DNA of 64,000 bases, taken from the NCBI GenBank assembly GCA_035530075.1, contig DATKVM010000002.1:103348-167347 (forward strand), read 5' to 3'. The stretch is from Patescibacteria group bacterium (GTDB lineage: Bacteria; Patescibacteriota; Microgenomatia; UM-FILTER-40-11). A program made the position numbers and the translations under genes. The first letter of the stretch is position 1, and the number at the start of each line of letters is the position of its first letter. The notes under the pieces were generated by a model, which had not been told where the DNA came from, made no database searches, and was given only the letters and a program-made list of their open reading frames with translations. Positions 9,707 to 48,901 of the stretch are shown here, piece after piece.

Positions 9707-12700
9707 TTAAAAGTTCTCTAAAGGGTCTCTGTTGAGCCGAACAAAAGCAAGCATCCAGATTAAAGCTACCCCTAACAAGACAAACCCCAAATATTCCAAA
9801 TACTGGGGTAAGAAGATTAAAAATACTCTTGACTGTTCACTAATTCCTGATTCCTGCAGACTATCCAATCTCCATCCGTTTTCCCAATTATTAACCAAAA
9901 CATGGTTTCTAATTTCCTGACCCAAAACTGGCGCCAGAAGAGCGCTTAGCGGCGAGCGCTTAGCGTCTAGTAAGTAGGCGTGCCAACCGGAATGATAGGC
10001 TTGAGAAAGAACGAGCGTGCCTTCTGTTACCGGCTGGGAGACTTCATACAAAGTCGGGTTGGGATGAGCGGCCGAAAGCGGTGTTAGGGCGGCGGTGGAA
10101 ACCGGCAGTTTTTGCCGCGTTAAACATAGGCCCGTCAAAAAACCATAAGGGATGGGGTTAACCTTCACCGCTTGCAAATCGTTAACTGTCTTTTGCCGGC
10201 CGATGGCAATATTATCAAAATGCAAAGAGTAACCCAGCCCATCTTGAGCCATTGGCGGTTGAATTAAGTAAGTAGTCGCCGTTTTTTTGTCTAGATAAAG
10301 CTCTAAATCTACTTTCTGGTTAGTTAAATTTTCCAGCCAAAAAAGCAAGCTTCGGCCGGATAAATAACGGCTTTGAATCGTTAGCAGGTAACCGAATTTA
10401 TGAGGCAATTCAGGCAAAAGAAACGACGCACTGCAATTATTGGCATCTTGGGCACTCAAGCGCAAGATTTCCTTTCCCCCTTGAGAAACAATTTCACTCG
10501 CCACTTGACCGCTTTTGGCCTGGCTGCAGTTCCTAATCGTCAAAGGGTTAAGAGCCCGGGCAACCTCAATCGCGGCGCTAAAATAGCCGTTAACTTTGGG
10601 AATAAAGACCACCAGTTCACTGCCGTAATCTCGCACTTGGGGAATGAGAATCCGGGTTTTACTTAAGTCGTTTGGGTCAACCCAAACCAGCTCCTGACCG
10701 CTAAAAGAAGGCAGGTGTAAAAAATAATTAGTCACCGCCGAAGGCAGCTTTTGGCGAAAGACAAAATTATTTTCTCCCTCCTCAATTCCGAAATCCTGCT
10801 CGTTAGTATCCCGGCCACTAAAAAGCGTTCGGAAAGGATAATAATAATCGACCCGCTCTAAAACAGATGAGCTTAAGTAATGGCCTTGTTCCCAAAATGC
10901 TTGATCAAAATTGCCCCACTCATAAGGAGGATTAACCGTGGGAAGACTTTTGGCCCAATAAACGAAGCCGGCGGGCGGATTTTTCTCCACCCGATAAACT
11001 TTAATTTTGCCGAAGTTGGCGGTGAGGTTAAATTTGGGAGAGTCCAAAAAGGCCGTTAGCTCTTCCCACCCAGCGGCCCGCCAACTGGAGCTATTGACAT
11101 TGTTTTCATCAATTAAAATCCAGCTTACTTGATATTTCTCTAAAACCTTTTCAAAAAGTGGTTGATTTTTAGAAAACAAAGCATAAGAAATTTCCCAATA
11201 ATAATTTTCGTTTGCTCCCCCCCAAGGGTCAAAAGCGCGGTCCAAAATTGGCTGTTCTATGCCATACCAAATAAAGCCGGAACCGCTATAATCGCCTCCC
11301 GGCCAATGATAGAAACTCCACCCCCAAAAATTTGTCTGGGGAAAATTAGCAATTCGGCCACTTTCTCCTTGTTTTCGAAAAAAGTCAAAAAGTTGGAAAT
11401 ACTCCGGAGGGAAGACCACCTTTTCCTTCGCATAGAAAAGCTGCCCCTGGAAAACCGGCCAAACAAAAATCAACGGCAAGATTAAGAAAAATAAACAAAG
11501 CATCTCTCGGTAAAGCCTCCCTCGCCATCCCTCAAGCTTAAAACTCCCGGCCATGGCCAGACTGATACCATAAAAAATCGCTAAACCAAAAGCCGATATC
11601 GGACTGAACTTAGTAAAAGCAAAGCGAAAGAGCTGGGAAAAAAGCGGCAGACGATAAAAAATGGCGGCCGGTAAGGAAAGAAAAGGGGTATCATTAAGGA
11701 GCATTAAAAACCCGAATAAAAAAACCGGTAAAAACAACGCTGCCCGATGCTTTTTCTTAAAGGCCGCTACTGTCCCCCCCAAAGCCATCAGAAAAAGAAA
11801 ATAACCCAGCGCCTTTACCGGCGGTTTTTGCAGATACTCTTCCCAAGCACCCATCATCGGTTGAAATTGGTTTTCTTGATTTGGTTCGATATTGTCAAAC
11901 CAAAAGCCCTTAAGCAAGGCGACATTCTCTAAATTGCCGTACTTTTTATTGCGTAAATAGTTCTCCTCGGTGGACATCAAATTAATTTTTGACTTGAAAG
12001 TCACTTTAACATTGGTCAGGACAAAGTAAAGGTTCGGCAGCAACCAAAAAGCGTTGAGCATAAAAGTTAACAGGTAAATCAAAAGGATTCTTCGCCAACT
12101 CCCTTTTTGGCGCCACCAAAATAAGATAAGGGTCAAAGATAGGCTCGTCAGGTAGACCAAAAGAAAGGTCGCGACATAGCCTTGAGCCACCGCCAAAAGA
12201 TTAACCGCCACCAGCCAAAAAAGATGTTTTTTGGTCGGTTTTTCCAAGAACTTTAGAACCACCAAGAATAACCAAGGAAGAAAAGCGAAATGAAGGGAAA
12301 AGGCCTCGTAGGGAACAAAAAAAAGCTGCAGGGTCGCCAGGTTAAAAAGATAAAAGAAGCTGGCTACTAGCGCGCCCCTCTTTCTTTGCCAAGAGTCATT
12401 CTCCTGAGCTAAAACAAAATTTTTCAATAGGAAATAAAGGCCTAATGGCCCCAAGAGAAGCATTAAAAAGTGGAAAAAATAGCGCATAAAGGCAATGGGC
12501 AAGAAAAAAGCGAGGCTTCTTAAAAAAAGTTGACGAAATAAGTCGGCGGCGTGTCCCATGCCGGGAAGCAATCCTAAACCTTGGTACTCTTGCCAAGCAG
12601 AAAAAAATAAACGGCGTAAATTAACGGCGAAGTTAAATTCCGGGTGCAAATTATCCCAACCAGATAAAAAAGTGCCCGGTTGATAATTTAAACCGGCCAC

Positions 12701-38333: not shown

Positions 38334-38549
38334 TCAAAATTTCAGTTTCCCGGGCCGGTCGAAAAATTGACCGAAAACCAGCCAGAAAATGCCTCCCCAA
38401 AAAAGTATTTTTAGGCCGGTTAGTCCCAAGAGTTCTTGTTGCCCAAAATCCCAACTCAATCCCAGTGGTAATGCTAGCCAGAGCAAAACCGGCTTCTTTA
38501 CCGCCAACCAAAAAAGAATAAAACTACTAATGATAAGTTCCATCGCCAA
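38334..38549 (-). CDS. mreD: Small integral membrane protein in the mreD position (putative short MreD)
   Basis: 71 aa with two hydrophobic helices, between mreC and pbp2. Shorter than canonical MreD, and the alternative frame 38329..38511 overlaps it, so the call is tentative. Confidence 0.35.
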   Translation of the reverse strand: MAMELIISSFILFWLAVKKPVLLWLALPLGLSWDFGQQELLGLTGLKILFWGGIFWLVFGQFFDRPGKLKF

Positions 38550-38553
38550 TAAA

Positions 38554-39321
38554 TTAGATTTTCCCCTTAATCAAAAAAACCGTTTCTAACTCTTCCGGAT
38601 TAAAAAGCCTTTTCACTTGGGCAGACTTAAAAACCTCTCCCTTTACCACCATTACTTCTTCGACTTCTCCTACCAATAAATCACCTCCCTCAAGATTAGT
38701 TATCACTAAATCCCCTTGACTGACTTCTTCGCTGGTTAGAATCTGCTCCACCCGCATCTTTCCCTGCCCCCGCCCGACTAAAAGCCCCCTTGCCCGGGGA
38801 AAGCCGGTCGAGTCTTTCCCCGCCACTATTCTCACCATCAGTCTTTCCTCAAAAAAACTTGGTAATCGAACCTGAGCCATTTCTTCGCTTAAGCTTACTA
38901 CCTTACCGAGAAAAGTCTGGCCGGAAATGACCACCATTCCTTCTTTAACGCCTTCTTTCCTTCCCTGATCAATAGTCAGAGTTTCGTCACCCAAACCAAT
39001 CACTTTGGCCGTTAAAAATTGCCAGTTTCTGGGCAAAGGCGAAGAAAGAAGTCTTTTTTGCTCTCGATTTTCCTCGGTTAAACTGGCAATCTGAACCTTC
39101 AACTCGGCAATTGTTCTCTCGCCAGCCAAGGCGCAACCCCCCAAATCCTTTTTTAAAAATCGTTGCCAGCGAAAAATTTTCGCCTGAACCGGAATGATAA
39201 GGGCATTTTCGAATTTTCCCCGCAGGGGACGGAAAATCCCGAGAAAATTTAAAGGCAAGAGGAAAAGAAAAATCAAGAGGAGGGCAATAAATGGTTGGGG
39301 CAATGGTCGACGATTAAACAT
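38554..39321 (-). CDS. mreC: Rod shape-determining protein MreC
   Basis: N-terminal TM helix, a coiled coil and a beta-rich C-terminal domain (GQTFLGKVVSL...GDLVITNLEGGDL). Confidence 0.8.
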   Translation of the reverse strand: MFNRRPLPQPFIALLLIFLFLLPLNFLGIFRPLRGKFENALIIPVQAKIFRWQRFLKKDLGGCALAGERTIAELKVQIASLTEENREQKRLLSSPLPRNWQFLTAKVIGLGDETLTIDQGRKEGVKEGMVVISGQTFLGKVVSLSEEMAQVRLPSFFEERLMVRIVAGKDSTGFPRARGLLVGRGQGKMRVEQILTSEEVSQGDLVITNLEGGDLLVGEVEEVMVVKGEVFKSAQVKRLFNPEELETVFLIKGKI

Positions 39322-47156: not shown

Positions 47157-47798
47157 ATGACAGTTATTTTTGCCGTTGCCAGCTTTATTATTTTCATTTA
47201 CTCCATTATTCTCCACGAAATCGCTCATGGATGGATGGCGGAGCGCTTGGGTGATCCGACGGCCAGAATTTCCGGCCGGCTAACACTAAATCCCCTTTCG
47301 CATATTGACCCGCTAATGAGCGTCCTTCTTCCCTTGTTCCTCCTTATCAGTCAATCTCCAATTATTATCGGCGCCGCCAAACCAGTTCCCATTGACCCCT
47401 ACAATCTGCGTAATTCCCAAAAAGAAATGGGGCTTATCGGTCTAGCCGGACCGCTAACTAACCTTCTCCTGGCCATATTGTTTGCCAGCTTGGCCCGACT
47501 TTTAACCGGTAACACCGCTTTAGTTTTCTGGCCGCTTTTGGCTAATGCCACCCTGCTTAATATTGTTCTGGCAGTTTTTAATCTCATTCCTATTCCGCCT
47601 TTAGACGGGGGCCGTGTTTTGATCTCCCTCCTTCCTCGGCGTTACGCCGAGCAGTTAATGAGCCTGGAAAATTTTGGTATTTTTATTGTCCTTTTTTTGT
47701 TTTTATTCCCTAACCCACTCTTTTCTCTTCAAGGAATAATGTTCCGCCTGACTCGCCTAATTTTTAGCCTTATCTTTCCCGGTTTTCCTCTACCCTAA
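47157..47798 (+). CDS. Site-2 protease family (M50) zinc metalloprotease, small form
   Basis: HEIAHG HExxH in TM1 and NLIPIPPLDGG in a later TM. Confidence 0.7.
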   Translation: MTVIFAVASFIIFIYSIILHEIAHGWMAERLGDPTARISGRLTLNPLSHIDPLMSVLLPLFLLISQSPIIIGAAKPVPIDPYNLRNSQKEMGLIGLAGPLTNLLLAILFASLARLLTGNTALVFWPLLANATLLNIVLAVFNLIPIPPLDGGRVLISLLPRRYAEQLMSLENFGIFIVLFLFLFPNPLFSLQGIMFRLTRLIFSLIFPGFPLP

Positions 47799-47910
47799 GC
47801 CCTAATTTAATACTTGACTGCCGGAAGCCAATTGGTCTAAAATATCTTCTTAGTCCTGCCTAAACGGGCCAGTTTTGAAAAACGCTTTTCTCTACAAGTT
47901 CAATACGTAA

Positions 47911-47980
47911 GGGGGGACGAAGTCCCTGTACCAAGTTGGCACAGAGCAGTCCACCCACCTGGGTTTCCCAGGGAATAGCG
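47911..47980 (+). ncRNA. Structured RNA-like element, copy 1 (unclassified)
   Basis: Three predicted hairpins: GGGAC-GAA-GUCCC, CUGUACC-AAGUU-GGCACAG and CCUGGG-UUU-CCCAGG. About 85% identical to copy 2 at 48159..48228, with partly compensatory substitutions in hairpin 2. Non-coding. Confidence 0.35.
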
Positions 47981-48070
47981 GTCAAAACCAAATCGTTAGG
48001 CGGGGCTTTAACTTAAACAAAAATCGCTTTCAAAACCTAGATTTTCTTCAAACATAGAAAAAGTTACTTC

Positions 48071-48099
48071 TTGACTTCGAGGCTAAATGAGGCTATTAT
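48071..48099 (+). promoter_or_regulatory. Sigma70-like promoter (TTGACT-N17-TATTAT) driving copy 2 of the structured element and possibly the tRNA cluster
   Basis: TTGACT at 48071-76, a 17-nt spacer and TATTAT at 48094-99. Confidence 0.5.
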
Positions 48100-48158
48100 T
48101 TCACCCAATCCTGCCCAAAAGACTCAAGTCTGATATCGCACCCCCAATTTAAATTGTT

Positions 48159-48228
48159 TGGGAGGACGAAGTCCCTGTACCATAATGGTCCAGGGCAGTC
48201 CACCCACCTGGGTTTTCAGGGGAAAGCA
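48159..48228 (+). ncRNA. Structured RNA-like element, copy 2 (unclassified)
   Basis: Same three-hairpin architecture as copy 1 (GGAC-GAA-GUCC; CUGUACC-AUAAU-GGUCCAG; CCUGG-GUUUU-CAGGG). Lies about 60 nt downstream of a consensus promoter. Confidence 0.35.
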
Positions 48229-48340
48229 ATTAAGGCCAATCTTCACGGCAGGATTAACTTTACCTATTTTCTGCGAGACTCTTCCTGCCATTTACCTCAA
48301 GCCTAATTTAGGATAAAATATAGTTGCATTCCCGTAGAGT

Positions 48341-48413
48341 GCCGACTTAGCTCAGCGGTAGAGCTACTGTTTTGTAAACAGTGGGTCCTCGGTTCGAATC
48401 CGAGAGTCGGCTC
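48341..48413 (+). tRNA. tRNA-Thr (anticodon TGT)
   Basis: Cloverleaf: acceptor GCCGACT/AGTCGGC, D arm AGCTCAGCGGTAGAGC, anticodon stem ACTGT/ACAGT with loop TTTGTAA, and T arm with GGTTCGAATCC. No encoded CCA. Confidence 0.85.
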
Positions 48414-48617: not shown

Positions 48618-48660
48618 GCCAGGGTGGCGGAGTGATCCCCACATTATGGCTTTGCCAAAT
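48618..48660 (+). pseudogene. 5' fragment of a type-II tRNA (tRNA-Tyr-like acceptor/D arm), truncated
   Basis: GCCAGGGTGGCGGAGTGATC matches tRNA-Tyr 5' (GCTGAGGTGGCGGAGTGGTC) and then diverges. No anticodon or T arm. Confidence 0.4.
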
Positions 48661-48687
48661 GCGGGGCAAGTAAACGCAAGAAATTTT

Positions 48688-48772
48688 GCTGAGGTGGCGG
48701 AGTGGTCAAACGCACCAGTCTGTAAAACTGGCGGTCGAAAGGCCTACGTAGGTTCGAAACCTACCCTCAGCA
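48688..48772 (+). tRNA. tRNA-Tyr (anticodon GTA), long variable arm
   Basis: Acceptor GCTGAGG/CCTCAGC, D arm GTGGCGGAGTGGTCAAACGCAC, anticodon stem CCAGT/ACTGG with loop CTGTAAA, variable arm CGGTCGAAAGGCCTACG and T arm GGTTCGAAACC. Confidence 0.85.
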
Positions 48773-48844
48773 CAGCAAGATTTCGCCTTAAATCAACTTA
48801 ATTGCAATCTGCCTGTCCCGCAAAAATGCTTGTATTTGGGGGAT

Positions 48845-48868
48845 AAAACTGGCGGTCGAAAGGCCTAC
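48845..48868 (+). pseudogene. Duplicated internal fragment of tRNA-Tyr (anticodon-loop 3' side plus variable arm)
   Basis: AAAACTGGCGGTCGAAAGGCCTAC is 24/26 identical to 48723..48748 of tRNA-Tyr and is followed by unrelated sequence. Confidence 0.45.
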
Positions 48869-48901
48869 TCAAGTTTGAGTCTTGACCCTGGCACCTCCGT
48901 T

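What the first reader, a model, noticed from the sequence alone, without database searches (positions are those of the whole stretch)
47911..48228. Twin ~70-nt structured RNA-like elements with a consensus promoter, upstream of the tRNA-Thr/Tyr cluster
Two non-coding ~70-nt units (47911..47980 and 48159..48228) are about 85% identical. Each folds into three hairpins: GGGAC-GAA-GUCCC, CUGUACC-loop-GG(C/U)(A/C)CAG and CCUGGG-UUU-CC(C)AGG. In hairpin 2 the substitutions are partly compensatory (A:C mismatch to A:U), which hints at selection on structure. Copy 2 lies ~60 nt downstream of a textbook TTGACT-N17-TATTAT promoter. I could not match the elements to SRP, RNase P, 6S, tmRNA or common riboswitch consensus sequences. 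Candidates are small ncRNAs, processed leaders of the tRNA operon, or duplicated recombination sites.
Basis: seen in the sequence. Interest (0 to 1): 0.6.

Follow-up and report, generated by a model that had tools for sequence, protein, structure and literature searches.

The report
Two tandem 6S RNA genes
The twin 70-base elements are the central parts of two neighbouring genes for 6S RNA, a well-known small RNA that mimics an open promoter and holds back RNA polymerase, here in a divergent form from an uncultured ultrasmall (Patescibacteria) bacterium that standard annotation thresholds miss.

Summary
The two units are real: 58 of 71 aligned positions are identical, and there are only two copies in 64 kb. 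They are fragments of larger RNAs. Each lies inside a ~150-160 nt RNA (about 47850-48010 and 48106-48258, + strand). The 5' and 3' ends of each RNA pair in a 9-bp closing stem, and each has its own TTGACT-N17/18-TAnnAT promoter ending 7-8 nt before the RNA.

The Rfam 6S/SsrS model aligns end to end with copy 1 (33.2 bits, E 3.6e-5). It also aligns end to end with homologues in related metagenomic contigs (36.5 and 41.1 bits). All scores are below the 46.4-bit gathering score. Copy 2 matches only through its core (20 bits).

Nineteen distinct homologues give strong covariation for a 6S architecture: closing arm, about 20 nt of open 5' bubble strand, apical stem, and a small hairpin on the 3' bubble strand. 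Cells paired are 94%, and 19 of 39 pairs show double changes.

The units look like twins because the apical domain of copy 1 resembles copy 2 (85%) while the arms do not (49%). That pattern suggests gene conversion.

Verdict: a new, divergent member of a known family, of modest interest.

The parts
47814..47843 (+). Promoter of 6S copy 1 (TTGACT-N18-TAAAAT); the -10 hexamer ends 7-8 nt before the RNA's first paired base
   Evidence: 10/12 match to consensus. The same arrangement is found upstream of all 14 copy-1-type homologues.
47850..48010 (+). 6S RNA gene, copy 1 (about 160 nt). The closing stem pairs A47852-C47860 with G47999-U48007. The 3' end is approximate and is followed by UUU.
   Evidence: Rfam RF00013 end-to-end match, 33.2 bits, E 3.6e-5. 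Own models R1/R2 score 171.6/164.1 bits. Covariation.
47891..47910 (+). 5' strand of the central bubble of copy 1 (UCUACAAGUUCAAUACGUAA), unpaired. It is the presumed template region for product RNA. The position aligned to E. coli U44 is about 47895-47896.
   Evidence: Unpaired in the consensus structure. UUUCUCUACAA is identical in 12 of the 14 copy-1-type sequences (10 of them read UUUC-UCUACAA across an alignment gap where the four long-stem sequences have an extra C); the two exceptions differ by one base. The U44 start site is from my own knowledge of the E. coli literature.
47911..47956 (+). Apical (internal) stem-loop of copy 1. GGGGGGAC (47911-47918) pairs with GUCCACCC (47949-47956) and encloses the hairpin CUGUACC...GGCACAG.
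   Evidence: Helices 5 and 6: 100% and 94.7% of cells paired, and 8 of 11 pairs have changes on both sides. MFE fold.
47958..47972 (+). Small hairpin on the 3' strand of the central bubble of copy 1 (CCUGGG-UUU-CCCAGG), preceded by the family-wide CACCCAC motif
   Evidence: Helix 7: 94.7% paired, 3 of 5 pairs with double changes. Matches the CCCACCUgg consensus of RF00013.
48071..48099 (+). Promoter of 6S copy 2 (TTGACT-N17-TATTAT), preceded by a conserved A-rich stretch (CATAGAAAAA)
   Evidence: 10/12. Conserved upstream of all five copy-2 homologues.
48106..48258 (+). 6S RNA gene, copy 2 (about 150 nt), a divergent paralogue. The closing stem pairs A48107-C48115 with G48247-U48255.
   Evidence: R1/R2 score 134.2/122.4 bits. 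RF00013 gives a partial match, 20.0 bits, model 40-147, E 0.02. The five copy-2 sequences fold on their own into a rod with 14 compensatory pairs.
48160..48220 (+). Apical stem (GGGAGGAC 48160-48167 with GUCCACCC 48198-48205) and 3'-bubble hairpin (48207-48220) of copy 2.
48291..48319 (+). Separate promoter-like site (TTTACC-N17-TAAAAT) for the downstream tRNA-Thr(UGU)/tRNA-Tyr(GUA) genes. It is context, not part of the 6S genes.
   Evidence: The same sequence is present in L011 and L014. tRNAs at 48341-48413 and 48688-48773.

Best explanation
The region holds two tandem, independently promoted genes for 6S RNA (SsrS-type), in a Patescibacteria (Microgenomates-like) genome. They lie between a site-2 (M50) protease gene and a tRNA-Thr/tRNA-Tyr cluster.

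Architecture. Each RNA (~160 and ~150 nt) folds into a rod with four parts: a closing arm formed by the 5' and 3' ends; a central bubble whose 5' strand (~20 nt, A/U-rich) stays open; an apical stem-loop; and a small pre-formed hairpin on the 3' bubble strand next to a conserved CACCCACCUGG motif.

Inferred mechanism. By homology with studied 6S RNAs, this shape mimics an open promoter. The RNA occupies the active-site cleft of the housekeeping sigma-RNA polymerase holoenzyme and withholds it from DNA promoters. When nucleotides become plentiful, the polymerase uses the 5' bubble strand as template for a short product RNA. That product refolds the 6S RNA and releases the enzyme.

The two paralogues differ most in the closing arm and in the 5' bubble strand, so they would template different product RNAs, as do Bacillus 6S-1 and 6S-2.

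The 70-nt 'twins' are the apical domain plus the 3'-bubble hairpin. In this lineage copy 1 carries a copy-2-like version of that module, most likely through gene conversion between the adjacent genes.

Shown here: sequence and structure homology to 6S, covariation, promoters, conservation, strand, and the mosaic identity pattern. Inferred: transcription, RNA ends, polymerase binding, product-RNA synthesis, and specialisation of the paralogues.
For: 1. Match to the 6S model.
- RF00013 aligns over its whole length (model 1-187) with copy 1 at 33.2 bits, E 3.6e-5.
- It also aligns end to end with the orthologue in L014 (36.5 bits, E 5.2e-6) and with a longer-stemmed relative in L103 (41.1 bits, E 2.1e-7).
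- The model's strongly conserved GGG...CCCACCU columns are matched.
- Copy 2 matches through the bubble and apical core (20 bits, E 0.02).

2. Covariation.
- In 19 distinct homologues, 94.1% of 730 cells pair. 19 of 39 pairs have changes on both sides (88 cells).
- 0/500 shuffles reach these values. Sliding the partners by 1-3 columns gives 40-57% paired.

3. Strand.
- There are 77 G-U cells. Pairing is 94.1% on the + strand against 86.2% if the - strand were the RNA.

4. Promoters and ends.
- All 19 homologues have CTTGAC-N17/18-TAnnAT ending 7-8 nt before the closing stem. All but two (window and L011 copy 2) have a run of at least three U within 8 nt after its last pair.

5. Conservation and specificity.
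- The gene sits directly 3' of the M50 protease gene in relatives whose protease is 61-84% identical.
- It was also found in 9 of 10 metagenome pattern hits, nearly always followed by tRNA-Thr(UGU).
- There were no hits in 846 kb of unrelated loci.

6. Architecture against the literature.
- The architecture matches the published description of 6S RNAs: rod, central bubble, closing and apical arms.
- It also matches the 5-7 bp pre-formed 3'-bubble hairpin described for B. subtilis 6S-1 (PMC8876501).

7. Mosaic pattern.
- Window copy 1 against copy 2 is 85% identical in the core and 49% in the arms.
- The copy 1 core is nearer to copy-2 cores (0.74-0.85) than to copy-1 cores of other genomes (0.58-0.61).
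- Its arms are clearly copy-1 type.

8. Not coding.
- No reading frame is conserved across orthologues.
Against: - No member of the clade reaches Rfam's gathering score for 6S (46.4 bits). This holds for the window and for 130 kb of related loci.
- At normal filter settings the match is not reported at all. It appeared only when short stretches were searched. Corrected for the whole 64-kb window, the E-value for copy 1 would be roughly 5e-3.
- Copy 2 matches only in part, and the copy-2 orthologue in L014 gave no 6S match at E <= 10.
- The reciprocal test failed. The clade model R2 does not recover E. coli ssrS in 50 kb. Restricted to the gene, it aligns it end to end at only -0.9 bits.
- There are no expression data, no RNA polymerase binding data and no product-RNA data.
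- The RNAs (149-163 nt in this genome) are at the short end for 6S.
- Only 64 kb of the genome was available, so a canonical 6S gene elsewhere cannot be excluded.
Confidence: 0.8

Rival explanations
1. A clade-specific structured small RNA of unknown function that only resembles 6S RNA. It would be a rod with an internal loop and would not act on RNA polymerase.
For: All RF00013 scores are below the gathering threshold. The clade model does not find E. coli 6S. Rod-like RNAs can collect moderate scores from a rod-like model.
Against: Three independent members give end-to-end alignments with E-values of 2e-7 to 4e-5. No other Rfam family competes. The match includes the model's most conserved sequence columns (GGG / CCCACCUgg), not just the helices. 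The position and size of the open 5' strand and of the 3'-bubble hairpin are as in described 6S RNAs (PMC8876501).
Confidence: 0.13
2. Cis-acting leader or processing elements of the tRNA-Thr/tRNA-Tyr operon. The structures would be part of the precursor and be discarded or used to regulate tRNA maturation.
For: Linkage to tRNA-Thr(UGU) on the same strand is conserved in nearly all relatives. No strong intrinsic terminator lies between the elements and the tRNAs, so read-through is possible.
Against: Each element has its own conserved promoter, placed so that transcription starts at the closing stem. tRNA-Thr has a separate conserved promoter-like site. Copy 1 is followed by copy 2, not by a tRNA. 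In L012 about 1.6 kb, and in L099 an inversion, separate the RNA from the tRNAs, yet the RNA is intact. There is homology to 6S.
Confidence: 0.04
3. Neutral duplicated DNA, a mobile repeat (MITE) or recombination (att) sites.
For: Two direct copies lie 250 bp apart next to tRNA genes, which are common integration targets. Remnants of a tRNA-Tyr gene nearby show that the locus has been rearranged.
Against: There are only two copies in 64 kb and none in 846 kb of other loci. The position is orthologous in about 13 lineages. Compensatory substitutions maintain 39 base pairs. Both paralogues persist in five lineages.
Confidence: 0.02
4. Small protein-coding genes. Public gene calls place 53-55 aa ORFs on the minus strand over these elements.
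For: Gene callers predicted a 55-aa ORF over copy 2 (L001 10968-11135) and a 53-aa ORF over copy 1 in L011.
Against: The ORFs have no Pfam hit. The longest open frame changes strand and frame from one orthologue to the next. The substitution pattern preserves base pairs, not codons.
Confidence: 0.01

Closest known systems
6S RNA / SsrS (Rfam RF00013)
   Same: The Rfam model aligns end to end. Both have a closing arm, a central bubble with an open A/U-rich 5' strand, and an apical stem. Both have conserved G-C pairs at the bubble edge and the CCCACCUgg motif on the 3' side. Both are independent genes with a sigma-70-type promoter.
   Different: Scores of 20-41 bits are below the 46.4-bit gathering score, so standard Rfam annotation misses the whole clade. 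The RNAs are shorter (149-163 nt here, up to 178 nt in relatives) than the ~200 nt usually quoted (PMC8876501). The host is an uncultured Patescibacteria lineage. In the paper library searched, no paper on 6S RNA mentions these lineages apart from one unrelated co-mention.
Bacillus subtilis 6S-1 (BsrA) and 6S-2 (BsrB) paralogues
   Same: There are two 6S paralogues in one genome with different bubble and arm sequences. A short hairpin is already formed on the 3' bubble strand, as described for 6S-1 (PMC8876501). Two copies are reported for some Firmicutes (PMC8414754).
   Different: Here the paralogues are adjacent, 95 bp apart, on the same strand and upstream of a tRNA cluster. From my own knowledge, not tested here, the Bacillus genes are at separate loci. 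Here the apical module appears to have been exchanged between the paralogues. Functional differences are untested.
E. coli 6S RNA (ssrS, NC_000913.3 3055983-3056165)
   Same: The order of elements is the same when aligned by the clade model: AUUUCAUACCACAAG in the 5' bubble, CACAUUCACCUUG...CAAGG on the 3' side.
   Different: There is no significant similarity (-0.9 bits; not found in 50 kb). In E. coli the 3' bubble strand is unstructured in the free RNA and forms a 9-bp hairpin only after product-RNA synthesis (PMC8876501). Here a 5-6 bp hairpin is predicted in the free RNA.
Ms1 RNA of Actinobacteria
   Same: It is a 6S-like rod-shaped RNA that binds RNA polymerase (PMC9130861 abstract).
   Different: Ms1 binds the core enzyme and is not matched by the 6S model. 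The RNAs here match the 6S model itself. Ms1 membership was not tested.

Membership tests
6S RNA (Rfam RF00013, SsrS) | Score at or above the curated gathering threshold (46.4 bits) | tested here: not met
   Copy 1 scores 33.2 bits and copy 2 scores 20.0 bits. Relatives score 36.5 and 41.1 bits. Nothing reaches gathering level in the window or in 130 kb of related loci.
6S RNA (Rfam RF00013, SsrS) | Statistically significant, full-length alignment to the family covariance model | tested here: met
   Model positions 1-187 are aligned with E 3.6e-5 (copy 1), 5.2e-6 (L014) and 2.1e-7 (L103). These E-values are for short stretches chosen after the fact. Copy 2 aligns only partially (model 40-147, E 0.02).
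6S RNA (Rfam RF00013, SsrS) | Rod-shaped fold with a closing stem from the 5' and 3' ends, a largely open central bubble and an apical stem-loop, supported by covariation | tested here: met
   39 pairs in 7 helices, 94.1% of cells paired, 19 pairs with double changes, 0/500 shuffles, slide controls 40-57%. About 20 nt are unpaired on the 5' bubble strand. The architecture is as described in PMC8876501.
6S RNA (Rfam RF00013, SsrS) | Conserved G-C pairs bordering the bubble and the conserved 3'-side motif (consensus CCCACCUgg) | tested here: met
   GGG/CCC is invariant in 19/19 sequences (pairs 64-66 with 136-138). CACCCACCUGG is present in both window copies and aligned to the model's upper-case consensus.
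6S RNA (Rfam RF00013, SsrS) | Length of roughly 150-200 nt, expressed as a discrete small RNA | tested here: inconclusive
   Predicted lengths are about 160 and 150 nt, up to 178 nt in relatives, with promoter-like sites in 19/19. No transcript data are available.
6S RNA (Rfam RF00013, SsrS) | Binds the housekeeping sigma-RNA polymerase holoenzyme and templates short product RNAs | not testable with these tools
   This needs RIP or pull-down and in vitro transcription. The organism is uncultured.
6S RNA (Rfam RF00013, SsrS) | Reciprocal recognition: a model built from this clade recovers a bona fide 6S gene | tested here: not met
   R2 does not find E. coli ssrS in a 50-kb locus. It aligns the gene end to end at only -0.9 bits when restricted to it. 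The model is narrow (effective sequence number 2.7).
B. subtilis 6S-1-type subgroup | Short hairpin pre-formed on the 3' strand of the central bubble in the free RNA | tested here: met
   Helix 7 (CCUGG/CCAGG) is 94.7% paired, with 3 of 5 pairs showing double changes. It is present in the MFE folds. The feature is described in PMC8876501.
tRNA-operon leader / cis-regulatory element | No promoter of its own; contiguous with and dependent on the downstream gene | tested here: not met
   Own promoters are found in 19/19. There is a separate promoter-like site before tRNA-Thr. The RNA is retained where the tRNAs are displaced or inverted (L012, L099).
MITE / dispersed repeat / att site | Many copies in unrelated contexts, with terminal inverted repeats or target duplications | tested here: not met
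   There are two copies in 64 kb and none in 846 kb of unrelated loci. The position is always orthologous.

The most novel reading that the evidence does not exclude
Patescibacteria of this clade keep two tandem 6S RNAs as a functional pair despite genomes of about 1 Mb.
- The two RNAs would share, and occasionally exchange by gene conversion, the polymerase-docking apical / 3'-bubble module.
- They would keep different closing arms and 5' bubble templates. They would therefore release RNA polymerase through different product RNAs and under different conditions.
- The conserved position directly upstream of the tRNA-Thr/Tyr cluster would couple 6S output to the promoters that set translational capacity.

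If true, this would be a compact, modular two-6S system in episymbionts. It would also show that 6S RNA is present in CPR lineages but systematically missed by current thresholds.
Probability: 0.25. Interest if true: 0.45.

Novelty: new member of a known kind. Interest (0 to 1): 0.3.

Why it matters
6S RNA is described as present in nearly all bacteria (PMC8414754). Yet this whole Patescibacteria clade falls below the Rfam threshold, and public gene calls place hypothetical ORFs over it. The clade alignment and model made here (A6, R2) could be used to annotate these genes.

It also gives a clear natural example of tandem 6S paralogues with a mosaic, gene-conversion-like history. That history separates the polymerase-docking module from the template and closing-arm module.

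Otherwise this is an ordinary housekeeping regulatory RNA and not a new kind of element.

Tried and rejected
1. Rfam at gathering level on the whole window and at E <= 10 on 1.25 kb showed nothing at the elements. The 6S match appeared only when 431 nt or less was searched. Whole-locus searches of relatives at E <= 10 also missed it. This is a filter effect, so the early 'no Rfam match' result was misleading.

2. My first guess was a cyanobacterial sRNA of the Yfr type. I dropped it when the flanking proteins identified a Patescibacteria MAG.

3. I considered RNase P RNA (GAGGAcGAAGUCC resembles the CR-I motif), SRP RNA, Y RNA and guanidine-II by eye. There is no Rfam support for any of them and the partner motifs are absent.

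4. I spent the single genome-contig scan on an M50 protease alignment. These 80 loci served only as an 846-kb negative control. As a result I could not name GTDB species or scan complete genomes.

5. The reciprocal search of the E. coli ssrS locus with the clade model was not significant.

7. Coding potential of the overlapping ORFs was rejected.

8. One of the ten metagenome pattern hits (L105) was not confirmed by the model and was treated as a chance match.
Full report
**The observation**

The two units exist as described. Window 47911-47980 and 48159-48228 align with 58 identities in 71 columns, or 82%. They share an exact 18-mer (GGACGAAGTCCCTGTACC) and an exact 21-mer (GCAGTCCACCCACCTGGGTTT). 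Even with three mismatches allowed, each of these occurs only at those two places in the 64-kb window, where 0.02 and 0.00 matches are expected by chance. The promoter TTGACT-N17-TATTAT is at 48071-48099. tRNA-Thr(UGU), tRNA-Tyr(GUA) and tRNA-Thr(GGU) follow on the same strand.

**Where the window comes from**

The gene directly upstream (47157-47798) encodes an M50 site-2 protease. An identical protein is named in NCBI as coming from a 'Patescibacteria group bacterium' MAG. Proteins 60-84% identical come from Microgenomates-group and Shapirobacteria-type MAGs. The neighbourhood (mreB-mreC-PBP2, def, fmt, M50, tRNAs, secE-nusG-rplKAJL) is conserved in these relatives.

**The units are the middle of longer RNAs**

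I read the intergenic region after the M50 gene in three related species (L011, L012, L014). Conservation extends well beyond the 70-nt units.
- Just after each promoter comes AGUCCUGCC (copy 1) or AAUCCUGCC (copy 2).
- About 150 nt further on comes its complement, GGCGGGGCU or GGCAGGAUU.
- An alignment of seven sequences gives a consensus fold of 39 pairs, 14 of them with compensatory changes.

The fold contains:
- a 9-bp closing stem formed by the two ends;
- three further short helices in the closing arm;
- an unpaired A/U-rich 5' strand of about 20 nt (47891-47910 in copy 1);
- the small hairpin CCUGGG-UUU-CCCAGG (47958-47972) on the 3' side.

**Identification as 6S RNA**

Rfam found nothing at gathering level or at E <= 10 over 1.25 kb. 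When only 431 nt were searched, which relaxes the filters, the 6S/SsrS model RF00013 aligned over its full length (positions 1-187) with 47850-48010 at 33.2 bits, E 3.6e-5.

The alignment puts the model's closing stem on AGUCCUGCC/GGCGGGGCU. It puts the model's open 5' strand on UCUACAAGUUCAAUACGUAA, and its best-conserved columns (GGG ... CCCACCUgg) on GGG ... CCCACCUGG.

Other members gave these results:
- The L014 orthologue gives 36.5 bits, full length, E 5.2e-6.
- L103, a relative with a longer apical stem, gives 41.1 bits, full length, E 2.1e-7.
- Copy 2 in the window matches only through the bubble and apical core (model 40-147, 20.0 bits, E 0.02).
- The copy-2 orthologue in L014 gave no match.
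- No member reaches the 46.4-bit gathering score in the 130 kb of related loci searched.

These E-values refer to short stretches chosen after the fact. Scaled to the whole window, copy 1 would be near 5e-3.

**The family and its covariation**

Covariance models built from the clade (R1, R2) find the RNA directly after the M50 gene in L011, L012, L014 and L096-L099.

A DNA pattern taken from the invariant parts found ten metagenomic stretches, and the model confirms nine of them. In almost all of these, tRNA-Thr(UGU) follows on the same strand.

As a control, 846 kb of unrelated loci gave no hit at E <= 1.

The 20-sequence alignment (19 distinct) gives these figures for the 39 pairs:

| Measure | Value |
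|---|---|
| Cells paired | 94.1% |
| Pairs with changes on both sides | 19 of 39 |
| Cells with changes on both sides | 88 |
| Shuffles reaching those values | 0 of 500 |
| Cells paired when partners are slid 1-3 columns | 40-57% |

All figures are; the 12-sequence version is.

Individual helices behave as follows:
- Helix 5, the long-range stem closing the apical domain, is 100% paired. It switches between GGAC/GUCC, GAGC/GCUC, AGGC/GCCU and others.
- Helix 7, the 3'-bubble hairpin, is 94.7% paired, with three pairs showing double changes.

The alignment was fitted to the model's structure, which favours that structure somewhat. However, the first consensus came from MAFFT plus RNAalifold. 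The five copy-2 sequences, folded on their own, give the same rod.

**Strand, promoters and ends**

There are 77 G-U cells. Pairing would fall from 94.1% to 86.2% if the opposite strand were the RNA.

All 19 homologues have CTTGAC-N17/18-TAnnAT ending 7-8 nt before the closing stem, so transcription should start at the first nucleotides of the RNA. Copy-2 promoters also share an A-rich upstream stretch. In all but two homologues (window and L011 copy 2) a run of at least three U lies within 8 nt after the last pair of the closing stem. No classical terminator was detected. The 3' end therefore remains open: termination at the closing stem, or processing of read-through transcripts.

tRNA-Thr has its own conserved TTTACC-N17-TAAAAT site at 48291-48319.

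Public gene calls place 53-55 aa ORFs over the RNAs. No frame is conserved between orthologues.

**Why the units look like twins**

Five lineages carry both paralogues (window, L011, L014, L098, L109). Others show one copy in the stretch available.

I split the alignment into a core (apical stem plus 3'-bubble hairpin) and arms (closing arm plus 5' bubble strand). The identities are:

| Comparison | Core | Arms |
|---|---|---|
| Window copy 1 vs window copy 2 | 85% | 49% |
| Window copy 1 vs copy 1 of other genomes | 58-61% | 65-86% |
| Window copy 1 vs L011 copy 2 | 74% | not computed |
| L012 copy 1 vs window copy 1 | 73% | 94% |
| L012 copy 1 vs window copy 2 | 85% | 48% |

The single L012 copy shows the same mosaic: its arms are copy-1 type and its core is nearest to window copy 2.

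So the core module of copy 1 was probably replaced by that of copy 2 in the common ancestor of these two lineages. This is gene conversion between adjacent paralogues. That replacement is what produced a sharply bounded 70-nt block of similarity. This is an inference from identity patterns and was not formally tested.

**Mechanism**

The architecture fits published descriptions of 6S RNA. These describe a rod with a central bubble flanked by a closing and an apical arm. They place '-35-like' and '-10-like' recognition elements in the apical arm and the 3' bubble strand. RNA polymerase uses the 5' bubble strand as template for product RNAs, which trigger refolding and release. B. subtilis 6S-1 has a 5-7 bp hairpin already formed on the 3' bubble strand (PMC8876501).

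I therefore propose that both RNAs sequester the housekeeping holoenzyme and are released by product-RNA synthesis.

By alignment to the RF00013 consensus, the position equivalent to the E. coli start site lies at about 47895-47896. That start site is U44, from my own knowledge. A product RNA would then be complementary to ...CGCUUUUCUCUAC. This stretch includes UUUCUCUACAA, which is identical in 12 of the 14 copy-1-type sequences and differs by one base in the other two. This placement is tentative.

The two paralogues differ most in this template strand and in the closing arm. By analogy with 6S-1 and 6S-2, they would differ in product RNA and in release behaviour. Two 6S copies are known in some Firmicutes (PMC8414754).

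**Weak points**
- Every 6S score is below threshold.
- Copy 2 matches only in part.
- The clade model does not recognise E. coli ssrS. It is not found in 50 kb. It scores -0.9 bits when restricted to the gene, although the alignment is end to end and colinear.
- Nothing is known about expression or polymerase binding.
- Only 64 kb of the genome could be examined.
- The one genome-contig scan was wasted on a protein motif too widespread to be selective. Distribution across named Patescibacteria species is therefore unknown.
- Four CPR loci (three Saccharibacteria, one Nomurabacteria) that came back from that scan show no hit next to their M50 gene.

**Novelty**

Full-text searches for 6S RNA together with Patescibacteria, candidate phyla radiation, Microgenomates, Saccharibacteria, Parcubacteria or CPR bacteria found no paper that treats the subject. 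That library is incomplete.

The element is a divergent member of a known and very widespread family. The tandem arrangement, the conserved linkage to the tRNA-Thr/Tyr cluster and the mosaic paralogue history are details of some interest to 6S specialists. The failure of standard thresholds matters for annotation of CPR genomes.

Noticed in passing
window 48618-48659 and 48844-48894 (flanking tRNA-Tyr 48688-48773): Remnants of a second tRNA-Tyr gene flank the intact one. Upstream is a decayed 5' half with acceptor strand GCCAGGG, like the orthologue in L014. Downstream is a 3' half that shares 25 identical bases (TAAAACTGGCGGTCGAAAGGCCTAC) with the intact gene. It has a diverged T arm and ends in CCCTGGC, which is complementary to the upstream remnant. 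The intact gene has a different acceptor stem (GCUGAGG/CCUCAGC). It looks as if an older tRNA-Tyr was split or replaced by an inserted copy. The weak Rfam 'sX4' match at 48674-48847 (25.7 bits) is an artefact of this tRNA-like sequence.
   Followed up: partly
window 48124-48291 (-) and 47860-47991 (-); L001 10968-11135; L011 10736-10897: Public gene calls put hypothetical 53-55 aa ORFs with no Pfam hit on the minus strand over the 6S genes. Which copy is covered, and which frame is open, differs between species. These are probably spurious calls.
   Followed up: partly
window 48291-48319: The promoter-like site TTTACC-N17-TAAAAT just upstream of tRNA-Thr(UGU) is conserved almost base for base in L011 and L014. 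The locus therefore carries three promoters in tandem within 500 bp.
   Followed up: partly
L012 10981-16721: In this relative the second 6S copy is absent. A block of about 6 kb lies downstream of the remaining 6S gene; the Band_7 gene at its start separates the 6S gene from the tRNA-Thr/Tyr pair, which sits inside the block at 12463-12667. The block also holds several unannotated ORFs and one with a weak Cas_csx3 hit, and ends before the VanW-like gene.
   Followed up: no
L101, L103, L104, L106 (e.g. L103 6104-6281): A subgroup of the family has an apical stem about 15-25 nt longer (RNAs of 177-178 nt) and promoters with CACAAT or AAAAAT -10 boxes. These members score highest against Rfam 6S (41.1 bits) and may bridge the clade to canonical 6S RNAs.
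   Followed up: partly
window 38530-38630 (-): Model R1 gives a weak match here (12.1 bits, E 0.42). It is not significant and is probably chance.
   Followed up: no
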